DNA of 64,000 nucleotides from Thalia democratica (lineage: Eukaryota), in NCBI GenBank assembly GCA_965202585.1, contig OZ241829.1:77810001-77874000 (forward strand), given 5' to 3'. Position 1 is the stretch's first letter; each line of letters begins with the position of its first letter. Position numbers: made by a program. Of this stretch, positions 18,001 to 45,000 are shown in pieces.

Positions 18001-21000
18001 TTTAAACTTGTGTGTTTATGGAGACGCATATAGAGTGATATTACGAAGTTATAGTTTCTATTACTACTAGAATAACTAAATACTTGTTTTGTATTTACTG
18101 AAACCATAAATGAAACAAAGATTCTTTTAGAGAAAACTTTTTTTTTTACTTTTAGCATAATAAAGCTTATCACCTACTTAAGCTAAAGTTATGTTGGACG
18201 AAAAAGTTGATTGCTGAACTTAAGCTATCTTTCATTTCATTAAAAATAGAATAAACATTTAATGTAATGTTTTACATTTATACTTTTAACAACAGCTTTT
18301 TTAAAATAACTGAATATATAATATTAGTTGCAATAATTTTTTTAGCTATAGTGTGAAAAATAAGTTATTGATTGTATTTAGCTAATCTTAAAAGTTTACA
18401 AAAACAAACAGAAGAGACTAGTTGATAAACATATACAATTTTCAGTATTATAATGACGTCACTTACTAATGTTAGCTTACAATTGGTTTTATATGAATTA
18501 GTATGACTATAAGTAAGTGCTATGGAAACCCAGGATATAGTTTGTAAGGCTTATTTAAGCCTTTATAAAGATGTTTATTGCGTAATTAAAGCTACAAACT
18601 GGGTTTTATTTTATTTTTCTCAAGTTGAATTACATATTTCTATTTTGTTGATTATGAGACAAGATTATTTGTTCATATTGACTCAACAGTCAGTCACAAC
18701 AGAAAAACTTGCTGTCGTCTACAAAATTTTGTTTTACAATCAAGTTACCGTTTGCTAACATGGTCAGTGACGTCAGCATTGAATAGTTGCAGTACAATGT
18801 TTAATGTATTGTCAAATTAAGCTAAACAACTGGTATTTATGGTATTCGTTTTTTATGCGATCGAATAAAACGTCATTGTAAATTAATCAGGAGTCAGCTT
18901 GTACTTACGTGTGCTGTTAGACAAGCTAAAGTTAACATAATGTTTGATCATTTCAATAATCGGACCACAAGCCTTCGGTAGACTGATACCCAGGTTTTGT
19001 TCTTATTAACACTAGTCAGTCGGTCGCAACCGAAAAGGTTGCAGTCTACCGAAGACTTATTGTCTGATTATCGAAATGGTATGATTAAACCTATAATGTG
19101 ACCTATAATTAAATAAATAATATAAACCTATGATTAAATGTTTATTTTAGCTTGAGCTAACACATTTATAAAGTCAAGGCTTAGGCCTGATAGATAGACG
19201 CCGTTGATTTCTTCGATTATTTGAGTAATAATTTTACATTTATTCATTCTAAAATATAAACAATTTAACATTTTAACTATAACAAAGAACTTTAGTAACA
19301 CTAAAATATTCTTTACATTTATTTTATTTTCGTGTCTGACATTATTTTTTATTTCAAAGCTATGTTAAACAAGCATAAAAATAAAAATCTTTATCCAAAG
19401 GTCAAAAATGTAGAGTCTAATAAACAAAAAACTTATCAAAATTATTATCATAACTTACTTAAGTTACTCAAAATCACTGGTTTAAAAAATGCCATAACTG
19501 CTAAGTTGTTTGGTTCGTTACGGTTTATTATAACAAAAACTAAAACTTAAATTTAAAAAATAAAACTTTGTTAATATACGAAAAGAAGCATTCTAAAACA
19601 AAACTTTAAAACCTGTCATGTAAATAAGTTGCACTTTAAAAAGATGAATCAAAAAGTAAAGAAATGAGCTTTACTAATTTTTACTATTATTTAATTACTT
19701 TTTTTCTTTTAATTGCTAATCATTAGAGGAATACTTCACATAATTTGATACAAACATGTTTATATTAAAACCACACTGATTCTTTACCCATTTTTCCTTA
19801 TCAACATCATACAAGTAAACAATTGTTTCAGTAAGAGCTTCTTGAGTATCCAGAAATACCACAATATTGTTGCCAATGCTGAATGCATCAAAGTACCATT
19901 TTTCTAAATTAGAAACTTTAATTTCTGACTTTATTTTTATGAATTTTCTCGAACAACAGTCAAATACTTCACAATTTATATTTTTCTCTCCACCAATAAC
20001 AAACAGTTTATTACCCATACTAACTGCAACATAAGAACGTCTCTTTTCAATCATATGAGGTAAATAAGTCCATTTGTTTTCATGATGATCATATGCTTCT
20101 GCTGATTTCAACGGAGACAAATTATTTTCACCTCCAGTGACAACAACTTTACCTTCAAAAATTGTACAAGCAGCACTATTTCTTCCCATATTTAAATTTG
20201 CTATATCACGCCATGCATTACTATTGATGTTGTAAGTGTAACACGAACTGACATTTTTATAATTATTTTTAACCCACCCTCCAATTATATACAATTTACT
20301 CATGAATGAACTAACACAAAAACAAGTCGGTTCTTTCATTTTCAAATTTTGATGATTCCAAGCTTTATTTTTTTTAGAATAAATTTCAACAGGTACAGCT
20401 GACAAATCAAAGTTTTTATTTTGATCTTCACAATAGCAAATAGCAAGTATATCAGATTTGATACTAACTAAATCTAAGTAGCAATGTGGTTTTACCATTG
20501 AAGGAAATTTGTTCACTTTAAAACTAGGTATTTCCAATTCTAAAACTTCGTTTGTAACTTTCCCATTTTTGTCTTCACCTCCACAAATCAAAACACTGAA
20601 GCCTTCTTGGTTACAATATCTGTTTTCATATAAAACTTTTGGTATTTGGAAAGGAATTGAGTTGTTTTTTTCAGGCATCATAGTTTTTTGTGTGAGATAG
20701 GAAAAAGCTAAATATTAGAAATTAAAGTTAAACAAAACAAATAATGAAGAAAATTATAAGATGTATTAGTTATAACAAAATAAGTTCTTCAAAAATAAAT
20801 CATAATAAAAATATGCCTATTTCAAAATTTTAATATTGTAATTAAAAACTATATATATTAATTCTAAATAACAAGTGCTTCATAAATTTTACTTAGATTT
20901 AGTAAAATTGTTTTATTTAGACTTTAAAGCTTTAATTTTATCTCATCATATTTATTTTACGCTACTTTGTTTATTAATGATAGAAAATACCTCAAATAAT

Positions 21001-42000: not shown

Positions 42001-45000
42001 TCTAAATAATTGTTGTATTTAAAAAAATAGTGTTTAACTTAAAATCCAACTTATTACTTGTATTAAAAAACATCATAACTTGTTGCGTTTAATATATTTA
42101 GTTATAAAATGTGACGTACTTTATTTAAATTAATAGAAATTCAATAGAGTACTGAAATACGACAGTAATCTATCTGTAATACTCTTTTGAACTTACTACA
42201 AAATTTTAAACTAAATGATTTGTTTTCAGCTAATACATCGTTTTGTTAAACGTTTTTACCTGAATACTTTTCGATTTTAGAATATGATTTTTTATATCTG
42301 ATATCCGTGGAAGTTTATTTATTTTAGTTTTCAGTGCTTACAAATTATGAGTAACTAAGTAAATTATTACTTAGTAAAACTAATTTATGACTTATTATTT
42401 TCAATTCAATATTTACGTTTCCTTTTATTGTTATCTAAAATGAACAGTACTTTTATGAATTATTTTAAATTTTAATTTAGTTTTAAATAAACATGATGAG
42501 ATAAAATTAAAGCTTTTAAAGTTTAGATACAGCTGTTTTACTAAAATTATTTAAAATATATGAAGCACTTGTTATTTAGAATCGATATATATAGTTTCTA
42601 ATTACAATATTAAAATTTTGAAATAGGCATATTTTTTTAATGATTCCTTTTGAAAAAAATATTTTGTTTCAGCTAATACATCTTACAATTTTCTTCATAA
42701 TTTGTTTTGTTTAATTTTAAACTCTAATATTTAGCTTTACCCTATATCAAAAAAAAACTATTATGCATGAAAAAAACAAGTCGATTCCTTTCCAAGTACC
42801 AAAGGTTTTGTATGAAAACAGATATTGTAACCAAGAAGGCTTCAGTGTTTTGATTTGTGGAGGTGAAGACAAAAATGGGAAAGTTACAAACGAAGTTTTA
42901 GAATTGGAAATACCTAGTTTTAAAGTGAATAAATTTCCTTCAATGGTAAAACCACATTGCTACTTAGATTTAGTTATTATCAAATCTGATATACTTGCTA
43001 TTTGCTATTGTGAAGATCAAAATAACAACTTTGATTTGTCAGCTGTACCTGTTGAAATATATTCTGAAAAAACTAAAGCTTGGAATCATCAAAATTTGAA
43101 AATAAAAGAAGCGACTTGTTTTTGTGTTAGTTCATTCATGAATAAATTGTATATAATTGGAGGGTGGGATAAAAATAATTATAAAAATGTCAATTTGTGT
43201 TACACTTACAACATCAATAGTGATACATGGAATAAAATAGCGAATTTAAATATGGCAAGAGATTGTGCTGCTTGTACAGTTTTTGAAGGTAAACTTGTTG
43301 TTACTGGAGGTGAAAATGATTTGTCTCCGTTGAAATCAGCAGAAGCATATGATCATCATGAAAACAAATGGACTTATTTATCTGATATGATTGAAAAGAG
43401 ACGTTCTCATGTTGCAGCTAGTATGGGTAATAAAATGTTTGTTATTGGTGGAGAGCAAAATATAAATTGTGAAGTATTTGACTGTTGTTCGAGAAAGTTC
43501 ATAAAAATAAATTCAGAAATTAAAGTATCTGGTTTAGAAAGATGGTACTTTAATGCATTCAACATTGGCAACAATATTGTGGTATTTCTGGATACTCAAG
43601 AAGCTCTTACTGAAACAATTGTTTACTTGTATAATGTTGATAATGAAAAATGGGTAAAGAATCAGTGTGGTTTTAATATAAACATGATTGTATCAAATTA
43701 TGTGAAGTACTACATCTAACATTCAGCAATTAAAGGAGAAAAGTATTTCAATACAGTAAAAAATCAGTAAAGCTCGTTTTTCTTTTTTTGATTTATTTTC
43801 AAAAGTGCAACTTATTTACATGACAGGTTTCAAAGTTTTTTTTTAGAATACTTTCTTTTCGTAAGTTAACAAAGTTTTTATTTTTAGTATAAGTTTCCGT
43901 TTTTCGTTATAATAAACAGTATTAAACCAAACAATTTAGCAGTTATGGCATTTTTTAAACAAGTGATTTTGAGTAATTTAGGTTAGTTATGATAATAATT
44001 TTGAAAGTTTTTTTGTTTATTTGACTTTTATGAAGTTTATTTTTATGCTTGTTTATTGTAGCTACAAAATAAAAAAATTATCAAACACAAATATAAAACA
44101 AACATAAAAAAATATTTCAGTGTTACTCGAAATCTTTGTTAAAGTTAAAATGTTAAACTATACTTTAGTAAATTTAAAATTATTACTCAAATAATCAAAC
44201 AAATTAACGGCGTTTATCTGTCAGGCCTAAACCTGGACTTTATAAAGCCGTAAGTTCAAGCTAACAAAAAGGCCATTTCGATAATCAGACAAGCCTTCGG
44301 TAGACTGGAGCTTTTACGGTTGTGACCGACTGACTAGTCTTGATTAAAAAAACCTGAAAAAGAATCTACCTAAGGCTTGTGGTCAGATTATTAAAATCGC
44401 CAAACATGTTAACTCTAACAGCACATGTGCGTCCAAGCTGAATCCTGATTAATTTACAATGACGTTTTATTTGATCGCACACAAAACGAGCATACCAGCG
44501 GTTTAGCTAAATGTGACAATGTATTAAAAGTTGCACGGAATATTCAGTTCTGACGTCACTGACCACGCCAGCAAACGGTAGCTTGACTGTAAAACAACAT
44601 TTTGTTGATGACAACTGCGAGTTTTTTAATTGTGACTGGCTGGTGAGTCCTACAAGCGTCTCAATCTATTAAAGGCTTTTGGTCTGATGATCGAATGGTA
44701 TGTACAATCGTTTTGTTAAATTTAGCTCATGTAATAAACATTATACTTTATATTGTACATGCTTTTTCTCTAATTATAAAAAAAACTAATTAGTTAAAAC
44801 AATGTGATACATAAAAAACGTTAATTTCAATTGAAAATTATATCAATTGTAGAATAAAGAGTATGTTCAATAAAAGTTAACAACTTTAAAATAACATCTT
44901 TCAACCACTTTTCTAATAAGCCAAAATATAAAAACAGAACTTTTTTGATTTAAGTTACATCTAAAGTTTTGATAAATTACCTGTAACATTAAATCTATGT

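What the first reader, a model, noticed from the sequence alone, without database searches (positions are those of the whole stretch)
19716..43719. Variability concentrated at predicted substrate-facing propeller positions
Seen: framework motifs (FEGK.VVTGG, EAYD, AVSMGNK.FVIGG, CEVF) are near-invariant, while the loop after blade-4 GG varies in sequence and length: YIYTQGK (K1), VNNWST (K3), FYINHGE (K4), NKKWST (K5), ENNLSP (K6), EIDLCS (K7), YYYPQGE (K8), ENDLSP (K10). Residues after the conserved Arg also vary (RSFM, RDCG, RHCV, RNSA, RGFT, RSSA; KFNH, RIDH, RSDH, RSYV, RCNH, RFYH). Known: these loops form the ligand-binding top face of Kelch domains such as KEAP1. Inference: diversifying selection on binding specificity.
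[Added by the scan's program, not by the reader: the finding's places include an assembly gap (unread letters, written N; its length is only estimated) at 25554 to 25821. Whether the letters on both sides are continuous or in frame is not known: test that first.]
Basis: partly seen in the sequence, partly recalled or inferred. Interest (0 to 1): 0.65.

Follow-up and report, generated by a model that had tools for sequence, protein, structure and literature searches.

The report
Tandem array of Kelch-only propeller genes
The window holds about fifteen copies of a small Kelch-propeller gene, most of them broken; their ligand-facing loops vary far more than the scaffold, but the tests run here do not show that selection for new binding specificities, rather than weak constraint, causes this.

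Summary
The pattern is real. The whole window, not just 19716-43719, is an array of about 15 single-exon, roughly 320-residue Kelch-only genes. Four are intact (K6, K7, K8, K10). Eleven are frameshifted, stopped, fragmentary or cut by the window end. An AlphaFold model (pLDDT 87.4) is a six-blade Kelch propeller like KLHL17, KLHL12 and KEAP1.

Variability is concentrated in the BC and DA loops, which in solved Kelch complexes form the substrate face. This holds for the window copies and for 61 independent homologs.

The selection inference is not established:
- Top-loop dN/dS is 0.5-0.7 as a class, significantly below 1.
- Residues after the two conserved Arg give 0.84 and 0.58.
- The blade-IV loop gives 2.9 with a gene-wide synonymous rate but 1.6 (p=0.48) with a local one.
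- Single-tree site models favour a class with dN/dS above 1 and exceed every simulated null replicate. The signal fades with segment-specific trees, with indel-adjacent columns masked, or with intact copies only.
- Paralog gene conversion is evident.

The assembly gap touches no copy. The organism is unknown.

The parts
1661..2647 (+). K1: full-length Kelch copy with one in-frame stop at codon 17 (Tyr to stop) and no frameshift. A recent pseudogene.
5161..5578 (+). K2: 3' fragment (from about residue 152) with an internal deletion and one stop. It is a mosaic of K12-, K6- and K8-like segments.
5917..6578 (+). K3: fragment from about residue 98 with one frameshift.
11485..11559 (-). Kx: remnant of about 25 codons from the N-terminal region.
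12107..13050 (-). K4: pseudogene with one frameshift and in-frame stops.
15830..16775 (+). K5: pseudogene with 3 frameshifts and 6 stops. Sister of K13.
19716..20681 (-). K6: intact 321-codon ORF. Inverted duplicate of K10 (88% amino-acid identity).
22983..23927 (+). K7: intact 314-codon ORF. K1-like backbone with K6/K10-like segments, including the blade-IV loop region.
25554..25821 (.). Assembly gap (268 N) in intergenic DNA. No Kelch similarity in 24000-27500. Not filled.
32568..33536 (+). K8: intact ORF, listed from GTG at 32568. The conserved Met-Met-His start lies at 32574/32577.
37750..38703 (-). K9: pseudogene with 2 frameshifts and 3 stops.
42763..43719 (+). K10: intact 318-codon ORF. 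This copy was modelled, and its residue numbering is used throughout.
43312..43329 (+). K10 codons 184-189: hypervariable blade-IV BC loop after GG182-183.
43261..43269 (+). K10 codons 167-169: end of the III-to-IV DA loop, after the conserved R166.
43402..43410 (+). K10 codons 214-216: end of the IV-to-V DA loop, after the conserved R213. Positions 214-215 are hypervariable. H216 is nearly invariant.
43453..43467 (+). K10 codons 231-235: hypervariable blade-V BC loop after GG229-230.
48075..49025 (+). K11: pseudogene with 2 frameshifts. Copy of K1 within the 94%-identical 5.5-kb segmental duplication.
51593..52078 (+). K12: 3' fragment with 2 stops. Mosaic of K8- and K5-like segments.
57536..58491 (+). 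K13: pseudogene with 3 frameshifts and 1 stop.
60887..61826 (-). K14: pseudogene with 1 frameshift and in-frame stops.
63933..64000 (+). K15: first 22 codons of a further copy, cut off by the window end.

Best explanation
This is a birth-and-death array of single-exon genes for stand-alone six-blade Kelch beta-propellers. The proteins are about 320 residues long and have no BTB, BACK or F-box domain. The source is an unidentified, very AT-rich, non-human organism.

The propeller scaffold, especially blades IV and V, is held by purifying selection (dN/dS about 0.3). The BC loops and the ends of the DA loops form the ligand-binding upper face in solved Kelch complexes. In this family they tolerate almost any residue, vary in length, and evolve at about the neutral rate. 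dN/dS is 0.5-0.7 for the loops as a class and about 0.8-1.6 at the hypervariable islands.

Copies arise by tandem and segmental duplication. They exchange segments by gene conversion, and most decay into pseudogenes.

**Shown:** the fold, the array, the lesions, where the variability lies, the rate estimates and the mosaicism.

**Inferred:** that the proteins bind partners through the upper face, and that loop variation changes what they bind. Weak constraint explains the data without invoking diversifying selection. Episodic positive selection at a few BC-loop positions remains possible.
For: **Fold and domains.**
- Kelch_1 matches have E of 1e-22 to 1e-28. No BTB, BACK or F-box family appears among the 9-12 Pfam families listed for each intact copy.
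- The AlphaFold model has pLDDT 87.4 and pTM 0.85, with 24 strands in six blades.
- Foldseek finds KLHL17, KLHL12, KLHL20, K13 and KEAP1 at target-normalised TM 0.63-0.84.

**Array.**
- All 6 ORFs of 150 codons or more in the window are Kelch copies.
- There are 16 tblastn places, counting the small Kx remnant.
- 4 copies are intact. 10 have lesions mapped by frameshift-aware alignment. K15 is cut by the window end.

**Location of variability.** Entropy is higher in top loops than in strands or bottom loops, in the window copies and in 61 homologs.

**Rates.**
- One-ratio model dN/dS is 0.46.
- By class: strands 0.35, bottom loops 0.31, top loops 0.68.
- With a free local synonymous rate, top loops give 0.58, with p=3e-5 against 1.
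- The branch-by-partition model gives top-loop dN/dS of 0.72 on intact-gene terminal branches, 0.68 on pseudogene terminal branches and 0.68 on internal branches. For the rest of the protein the values are 0.30, 0.41 and 0.32.
- The site-by-site test with a free synonymous rate finds 1 of 329 sites with dN/dS above 1 at p<0.05, and that site is not in a loop.

**Gene conversion.**
- The codon alignment shows mosaic copies.
- The nearest paralog switches along the gene.
- The pairwise homoplasy (PHI) test gives p=0.002 and 0.016 in two subsets.
- 4 of 91 pairs have longest shared runs at the permutation floor, p=0.0005.
Against: - On one tree, site models prefer a class with dN/dS above 1. M1a-M2a 2dlnL is 21.4 or 15.2 (grid version), and M8a-M8 is 22.8 or 22.6. 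About 4-8% of sites have dN/dS of 2.4-3.4.
- 0 of 52 null simulations with three segment trees reached the observed values, and 0 of 19 with one tree.
- 11 of the 12 sites with M8 posterior above 0.8 lie in BC/DA loops.
- The intact sister pair K6/K10 differs by 18 nonsynonymous and 2 synonymous codons in the top loops, giving a Nei-Gojobori ratio of 2.3.
- With only 11 full-length copies, 7 of them pseudogenes, the tests that fail to reject neutrality at the 6-12 named codons have little power.
Confidence: 0.6

Rival explanations
1. Recurrent diversifying selection on binding specificity drives amino-acid replacement in the upper-face loops, above all the BC loops of blades II, IV, V and VI. 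The model is substrate-adaptor families in host-parasite conflicts.
For: - Single-tree M1a-M2a, M8a-M8 and M7-M8 likelihood ratios are 15-36.
- The observed M1a-M2a and M8a-M8 values exceed all 52 + 19 simulated null replicates.
- Candidate sites are 88, 93, 117, 184, 187, 189, 231, 258, 261, 280, 281 and 310. Eleven of the 12 lie in BC/DA loops.
- The blade-IV loop gives dN/dS 2.9 with a gene-wide synonymous rate.
- K6/K10 top loops differ 18 nonsynonymous to 2 synonymous.
- Entropy at the islands is near the maximum in 61 homologs.
Against: - With 3 or 6 segment-specific trees, M1a-M2a falls to 3.2 and 1.8, and M8a-M8 to 9.9 and 5.7.
- Masking 46 indel-adjacent columns gives 6.5 and 10.9. 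These are below the simulated 95th percentiles of 11.9 and 14.0.
- Intact genes alone give 3.1 and 4.0.
- With the local synonymous rate free, the blade-IV loop gives 1.59 (p=0.48). The VI-BC loop gives 0.20 with an 8-fold synonymous rate, which points to misalignment or conversion there.
- Top-loop dN/dS is the same on intact and pseudogene branches.
- M7-M8 is uninformative here: 19 of 19 and 52 of 52 null replicates exceed 5.99 or are large, and 14 of 52 exceed the observed value.
- My implementation is liberal: 3 of 19 single-tree null replicates exceed 5.99 for M1a-M2a.
- The K6/K10 Fisher test of top loops against the rest gives p=0.17.
Confidence: 0.3
2. The whole array is decaying. Even the four open copies are no longer under selection, and the conserved scaffold only reflects past constraint and recent duplication.
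For: - 11 of 15 copies are broken or truncated.
- Gene-wide dN/dS between the intact sisters K6 and K10 is 0.90.
Against: - Outside the top loops, dN/dS on the terminal branches of the four intact copies is 0.30.
- Four frames of 314-322 codons stay open in DNA of 24% G+C, in a window where no non-Kelch ORF reaches 150 codons.
- 61 full-length relatives with open frames exist in public data.
Confidence: 0.07
3. The excess variability at the loops is mostly technical. Short loops of different length are aligned as if homologous, and short gene-conversion tracts move whole loops between paralogs. A single tree therefore counts each transfer as many independent replacements.
For: - The blade-IV loop has two length types: 6 residues (x-N-N/D-W/L-S-x) and 7 residues (Y-x-Y-x-x-G-E/K). 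They are distributed patchily on the tree.
- K7 carries a K6/K10-like loop in a K1-like backbone. K2 and K12 differ in this loop although their flanks are 98% identical.
- More than half of the likelihood-ratio signal disappears when indel-adjacent columns are masked.
Against: - High entropy at these positions is also seen within one loop-length class, and in 61 homologs aligned independently.
- Positions with no indel nearby (88, 93, 231, 261) keep posteriors above 0.8 after masking.
Confidence: 0.35

Closest known systems
BTB-BACK-Kelch (KLHL) substrate adaptors of CUL3 ligases, such as KLHL17, KLHL12, KLHL20 and KEAP1
   Same: Same six-blade Kelch propeller. By sequence, KLHL17 (6hrl) matches at E 3e-39. 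By structure, target-normalised TM is 0.80-0.84 to the KLHL17, KLHL12, KLHL20 and KEAP1 Kelch domains.

The variable BC loops and DA-loop ends are the elements that form the substrate pocket in those proteins (passages read). A 460-residue relative (P0118) joins a BACK domain to a Kelch domain beginning with the same RYCNQ motif.
   Different: No BTB or BACK domain is present in any copy. The window holds no BACK-like sequence: no HSP was found for P0118 residues 1-141. The proteins therefore cannot recruit CUL3 in the known way.

They are single-exon, stand-alone propellers in a tandem array that is mostly pseudogenes.
Expanded substrate-adaptor families with fast-evolving binding domains: nematode MATH-BTB and F-box genes (Thomas 2006), and plant F-box-Kelch families
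   Same: Tandem birth-and-death expansion with a conserved scaffold and a variable binding surface.

I know Thomas 2006 only through the discussion and reference list of PMC4334554. It is reported there to show strong positive selection in the substrate-binding domains, rapid birth-death evolution, and a proposed role in degrading foreign proteins.
   Different: There is no ligase-docking domain here. Positive selection is not robustly shown here. The plant F-box-Kelch papers were seen only as a search listing.
Kelch-only proteins such as the KLHDC type
   Same: A stand-alone Kelch propeller of similar size. The Pfam family Kelch_KLHDC2_KLHL20_DRC7 matches at 60-68 bits against a cut-off of 50.
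   Different: That Pfam model is a general Kelch-repeat model that also covers KLHL20. I recall that KLHDC receptors have a C-terminal ligase-docking box, but I did not test for one. The best structural and sequence matches here are KLHL Kelch domains.

Membership tests
Kelch-repeat beta-propeller superfamily | Kelch motif profile matches above the curated cut-off | tested here: met
   Kelch_1 scores 76.6-96 bits against a cut-off of 20.1 in all four intact copies, with 3 matched stretches each.
Kelch-repeat beta-propeller superfamily | Six four-stranded blades closed by a C-terminal strand | tested here: met
   The AlphaFold model has pLDDT 87.4. Strands fall in six blades, and residues 312-317 are placed as the innermost strand of blade I. 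Foldseek gives probability 1.00 against solved Kelch domains. This is a prediction, not a solved structure.
BTB-BACK-Kelch (KLHL) CUL3 adaptors | N-terminal BTB domain | tested here: not met
   No BTB family appears among the Pfam matches of the four intact copies. The ORFs start about 25 residues before blade I, with stops upstream.
BTB-BACK-Kelch (KLHL) CUL3 adaptors | BACK domain with the 3-box that binds CUL3 | tested here: not met
   There is no BACK match. tblastn of P0118 (BACK + Kelch) against the window gives no HSP before its residue 142 at E up to 10. An unrecognised upstream exon cannot be fully excluded.
F-box-Kelch proteins | N-terminal F-box | tested here: not met
   There is no F-box family match. 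The Kelch_FKB95 repeat model scores 57.7-72.2 bits against a cut-off of 70, above it in one copy only.
Adaptor-type families under diversifying selection at the binding surface | A class of sites with dN/dS above 1 that survives control for recombination and synonymous-rate variation | tested here: inconclusive
   Significant on one tree and against simulated nulls. Not significant with segment trees, masked indel columns, intact genes only, or free local synonymous rates.
Adaptor-type families under diversifying selection at the binding surface | Fast sites cluster on the ligand-binding surface | tested here: met
   11 of 12 candidate sites are in BC/DA loops. Entropy tests agree. Loops were assigned to the upper face by strand topology and the literature, not by model coordinates, which the tools do not release.
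Adaptor-type families under diversifying selection at the binding surface | Rapid birth-and-death in tandem arrays | tested here: met
   About 15 copies lie in 64 kb and 4 are intact. Nested segmental duplications are 82-94% identical.
KLHDC-type Kelch-only CUL2 receptors | C-terminal ligase-docking box after the propeller (recalled, not from a call) | not tested
   The proteins end within 1-4 residues of the last strand, which leaves no room for an extra C-terminal module. No profile for such a box was searched.

The most novel reading that the evidence does not exclude
The array encodes a diversifying repertoire of stand-alone Kelch 'recognition' propellers. Short gene-conversion tracts move whole upper-face loops, such as the two blade-IV loop types, between tandem paralogs, pseudogenes included. 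Broken copies would then serve as a reservoir of loop cassettes, and the family would track fast-changing targets such as parasite or host proteins.
Probability: 0.15. Interest if true: 0.65.

Novelty: new member of a known kind. Interest (0 to 1): 0.3.

Why it matters
Two things would make the family a candidate recognition repertoire in an unidentified AT-rich eukaryote: the intact copies being expressed, and the loops deciding what they bind. It would be a Kelch counterpart of the MATH-BTB and F-box expansions, but without a ligase-docking domain, which raises the question of how such propellers signal.

As it stands, this is the ordinary pattern of a propeller family: a conserved scaffold and free loops.

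The practical lesson is methodological. The standard M7/M8 test is uninformative here, because every null simulation gave a 'significant' result. Gene conversion and indel-rich loops account for much of the apparent positive selection.

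Tried and rejected
**Genetic code and other features.**
- A non-standard code was rejected. The intact genes end in TAA or TAG, and table 4 opens no further long frames beyond Kelch pieces.
- The window has no tRNA genes and no Rfam matches.

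**Organism.**
- All 120 listed relatives come from one source without names. A look-up of six of them returned neither names nor accessions. I did not try to trace them.
- The Atlas gave only generic Kelch clusters from several phyla.
- My recalled lead was that the GC-poor aphid-parasitoid wasp genomes have a Kelch expansion. It failed: that paper contains the word 'kelch' 0 times.
- A scan of bacterial and archaeal genomes found 89 pattern matches, none confirmed.

**Other searches.**
- Pfam on 10 non-Kelch ORFs gave nothing below E 0.006.
- The search for longer, fused relatives gave 2 weak hits, at E 1e-8 and 1e-4.
- The all-library search found 40,140 proteins at E up to 0.001 and 611 at E up to 1e-30. 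The top of the list is dominated by giant multi-Kelch proteins of 1,000-7,600 residues at 25-35% identity, so it says little about this family.

**Methods dropped or corrected.**
- A first codon alignment made with keep-length addition mis-placed the 7-residue loops. It was replaced by a frameshift-aware alignment.
- The PHI test on all 11 full-length copies was not significant (p=0.28).
- M7-M8 was rejected as a test.

**Not possible or not used.**
- PAML and HyPhy are not installed. All codon models are my own implementation (GY94 with F3x4 frequencies, branch lengths fixed at one-ratio estimates).
- No DNA of the homologs could be obtained.
- Complex prediction was not used, because no partner is known.

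Full report
**What is there**

- The window has 20-32% G+C per 2 kb. It has no tRNA genes and no Rfam matches.
- Only six ORFs reach 150 codons, and all six are Kelch copies.
- tblastn with one intact copy finds 28 HSPs in 16 places spread over the whole window. The finding's coordinates (19716-43719) cover only five of the copies.
- I label the copies K1 to K15, plus a small remnant Kx.
- Four are intact single-exon ORFs of 314-322 codons ending in TAA or TAG: K6 (19716-20681, minus strand), K7 (22983-23927), K8 (32568-33536) and K10 (42763-43719).
- A frameshift-aware protein-to-DNA alignment, with X at every break, mapped the lesions in the others:

| Copy | Lesions |
|---|---|
| K1 | one premature stop |
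| K11 | two frameshifts |
| K4 | one frameshift plus stops |
| K14 | one frameshift plus stops |
| K9 | two frameshifts, three stops |
| K5 | three frameshifts, six stops |
| K13 | three frameshifts, one stop |
| K2, K3, K12 | fragments |

- K15 is cut by the window end.
- I do not take the contig for human.

**The assembly gap**

The 268 N at 25554-25821 lie in intergenic DNA between K7 and K8. Kelch queries find only hits with E of 1.5 or more in 24000-27500. The flanks have no paralogous stretch elsewhere in the window. No copy is interrupted. The gap was left as it is.

**What the protein is**

- All four intact copies match Kelch_1 (E 1e-22 to 1e-28) and other Kelch-repeat models. None matches a BTB, BACK or F-box model.
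- The best PDB sequence match is the KLHL17 Kelch domain (E 3e-39).
- An AlphaFold model of K10, built on a 65-sequence alignment, has pLDDT 87.4 and pTM 0.85. It shows six four-stranded blades, with the C-terminal strand closing blade I.
- Foldseek places it with KLHL17, KLHL12, KLHL20, Plasmodium K13 and KEAP1 at target-normalised TM 0.63-0.84.
- Relatives: 170 proteins at E up to 0.001, of which the best 120 are listed. All come from one unnamed source on short contigs, at 64% identity or less. 61 are full length. No names or accessions were available.
- One relative of 460 residues (P0118) carries a BACK domain in front of a Kelch domain that starts with the same RYCNQ motif. Its BACK part finds nothing in the window.
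- The search for longer forms gave two weak hits. Bacterial and archaeal genomes hold no relative.
- So these are stand-alone propellers, probably derived from a BTB-BACK-Kelch ancestor. That derivation is an inference.

**The observation**

I assigned strands A-D of each blade from the model. I classed BC and DA loops as 'top' and AB and CD loops as 'bottom'.

Passages read in PMC3597819 and PMC6720452 say that the substrate site lies on the upper face and is shaped by the protruding BC loops and the inter-blade DA loops. Table 2 of PMC10146909 places the KEAP1 residues that contact Nrf2 (S363, R380, N382, N414, R415, R483, S508) in DA and BC loops.

Mean column entropy in bits:

| Set | Top loops | Strands | Bottom loops | p, top vs strands | p, top vs bottom |
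|---|---|---|---|---|---|
| 14 window copies | 1.31 | 0.81 | 0.77 | 1e-7 | 2e-4 |
| 61 homologs | 2.68 | 1.85 | 1.74 | 7e-11 | 5e-7 |

- Window and homolog entropies correlate (Spearman 0.59).
- In blades IV and V the pattern is stark. The hypervariable islands are positions 167-168, 184-189, 214-215 and 231-235, at 2.5-3.7 bits in the homologs. They sit inside a framework at 0.1-0.7 bits.
- The quoted loops and post-Arg strings are all present.
- The framework motifs hold in 8 to 12 of 14 copies. All misses but one are in broken copies.
- Half of the eight quoted loops come from pseudogenes.

**Is it diversifying selection?**

PAML and HyPhy were not available. I wrote a GY94-F3x4 likelihood implementation and applied it to the 11 full-length copies (4 intact, 7 broken, with broken codons masked).

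*Rate estimates*

- The one-ratio model gives dN/dS 0.46, kappa 2.07 and a tree length of 4.1 substitutions per codon.
- Nei-Gojobori ratios between pairs among the four intact copies and K1 are 0.38-0.90 gene-wide. In the top loops they are 0.42-1.04, or 2.31 for the sisters K6/K10 (18 nonsynonymous to 2 synonymous codon differences). Elsewhere they are 0.37-0.61.

dN/dS by class, with gene-wide branch lengths:

| Class or block | dN/dS |
|---|---|
| Strands | 0.35 |
| Bottom loops | 0.31 |
| Top loops | 0.68 |
| BC loops | 0.85 |
| DA loops | 0.54 |
| Blade-IV loop, 184-189 | 2.9 |
| After R166 | 0.84 |
| After R213 | 0.58 |

With a free local synonymous rate:

- Top loops give 0.58, with p=3e-5 that it is below 1.
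- The blade-IV loop gives 1.59 (p=0.48).
- The VI-BC loop gives 0.20 with an 8-fold synonymous rate.

Other partitioned fits:

- With separate branch lengths, top loops give 0.50 (tree length 5.7) and the rest 0.40 (tree length 3.3).
- A branch-by-partition model gives top-loop dN/dS of 0.72 on intact terminal branches, 0.68 on pseudogene terminal branches and 0.68 on internal branches. Fixing the first at 1 costs 2dlnL 3.0 (p=0.08).
- A site-by-site test with free synonymous rates finds 1 of 329 sites with dN/dS above 1 at p<0.05. That site is position 6, in the N-terminal tail.

*Random-site models, 2dlnL*

| Analysis | M1a-M2a | M8a-M8 | M7-M8 |
|---|---|---|---|
| One tree, direct fit | 21.4 | 22.8 | 36.3 |
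| One tree, grid version | 15.2 | 22.6 | 36.5 |
| Three segment trees | 3.2 | 9.9 | 23.7 |
| Six segment trees | 1.8 | 5.7 | 20.4 |
| 46 of 329 columns next to indels masked | 6.5 | 10.9 | 16.9 |
| Four intact copies only | 3.1 | 4.0 | 5.2 |
| Intact copies plus K1 and K11 | 3.8 | 3.3 | 5.6 |

- On one tree, 4-8% of sites have dN/dS of 2.4-3.4.
- The 12 sites with M8 posterior above 0.8 are 88, 93, 117, 184, 187, 189, 231, 258, 261, 280, 281 and 310. Eleven lie in BC/DA loops.

*Null simulations without positive selection (59% of sites at 0.2, 41% at 1)*

| Null | Replicates | M1a-M2a | M8a-M8 | M7-M8 |
|---|---|---|---|---|
| One tree | 19 | 3 exceed 5.99; max 14.2 | 2 exceed 5.99; max 14.7 | all 19 exceed 5.99 |
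| Three segment trees | 52 | 95th percentile 11.9; max 14.7 | 95th percentile 14.0; max 15.9 | 14 reach the observed value |

- No null replicate reaches the observed M1a-M2a or M8a-M8 values.
- M7-M8 is useless here, and my implementation is somewhat liberal.
- The full-data signal is larger than these nulls produce.
- The nulls lack synonymous-rate variation, alignment error and fine-scale conversion, which are the factors the other analyses point to.

**Recombination**

- The codon alignment shows mosaics. K12 has the K8 loop but a K5-like stretch after it. K2 has a K6-like loop between K12-like and K8-like flanks. K7 has a K1-like backbone with K6/K10-like segments, including the blade-IV loop region.
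- PHI gives p=0.28 for all 11 copies, 0.002 for the intact four plus K1, and 0.016 for one copy per pair.
- In a longest-shared-run permutation test, 4 of 91 pairs sit at the floor p=0.0005: K1-K7, K7-K11, K2-K6 and K8-K9. Runs in conserved stretches can also come from constraint.
- The blade-IV loop occurs in a 6-residue and a 7-residue form, distributed patchily on the tree.

**Verdict**

- The structural reading is supported.
- The claim of diversifying selection is neither shown nor excluded.
- A handful of BC-loop positions remain candidates.
- The most economical reading is a birth-and-death array with a constrained scaffold, nearly unconstrained upper-face loops and paralog gene conversion.

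**Comparison with known families**

- The closest conceptual parallel is the nematode MATH-BTB and F-box expansions. They are described in the discussion of PMC4334554, citing Thomas 2006, which I did not read.
- Unlike those families, these proteins have no ligase-docking domain.
- This is a new member of a known kind.

**What stayed unchecked**

- The organism.
- Expression of the intact copies.
- DNA of the homologs.
- Relatives in the closed viral and metagenome collections.

No paper supplements were needed.

Noticed in passing
window 1-5466 and 46416-51898: A 5.5-kb direct segmental duplication at 94% identity. It carries K1/K11, the start of K2/K12 and the DNA between them. Both full-length copies are broken, but by different lesions: one stop in K1 and two frameshifts in K11. 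They were therefore probably disabled after the duplication.
   Followed up: partly
window 2900-3960 and 49295-50260: An element of about 1 kb with 40-45% G+C in a 24% G+C background, present in both arms of the duplication. It contains a 54-bp tandem repeat (3378-3508 and 49785-49915). It has no Rfam match at E up to 0.1, and its ORFs have no Pfam match. Its nature is unknown.
   Followed up: partly
window 27505-29010, minus strand: A non-Kelch reading frame of about 1.5 kb, broken by three in-frame TAA codons and two frame changes. It begins with a hydrophobic segment after the start Met and contains an internal repeat (HKCASKTE seen twice). It has no Pfam family; the best match is IFT20 at E 0.006, below the cut-off. 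It is either another pseudogene or a gene with introns.
   Followed up: partly
window 36504-36656, and 35739-36076: A G+C-richer tandem repeat with an 18-bp unit (also scored at 35 and 53 bp, about 8 copies). Next to it is a 338-bp stretch that matches its own reverse complement at 74%.
   Followed up: no
window 1184-1660, 22505-22982, 39175-38704 and 47599-48074: About 480 bp upstream of the start codons of K1, K7, K9 and K11 is conserved at 80-84%. Weaker similarity extends a further 0.5 kb (619-1181 matches 21493-22076). This may be a shared promoter or 5' UTR. No upstream coding exon was recognised.
   Followed up: no
window 9540-11373 and 31568-29734; 13690-14259 and 63078-62513: Non-Kelch intergenic stretches duplicated in inverted orientation at 83-87% identity. 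The duplication units of the array are therefore larger than the genes.
   Followed up: no
window 19141-20957 and 44270-42485: K6 and K10 are an inverted duplicate pair 22 kb apart, with 88.5% DNA identity over 1.8 kb. Both are intact, with gene-wide dN/dS of 0.90.
   Followed up: partly
blades IV-V of all copies (K10 residues 170-249): Conservation is very uneven around the propeller. Blades IV and V are nearly invariant in 61 homologs, apart from their loop islands. Blades II and VI vary even in their strands. One side of the propeller may carry a conserved function.
   Followed up: partly
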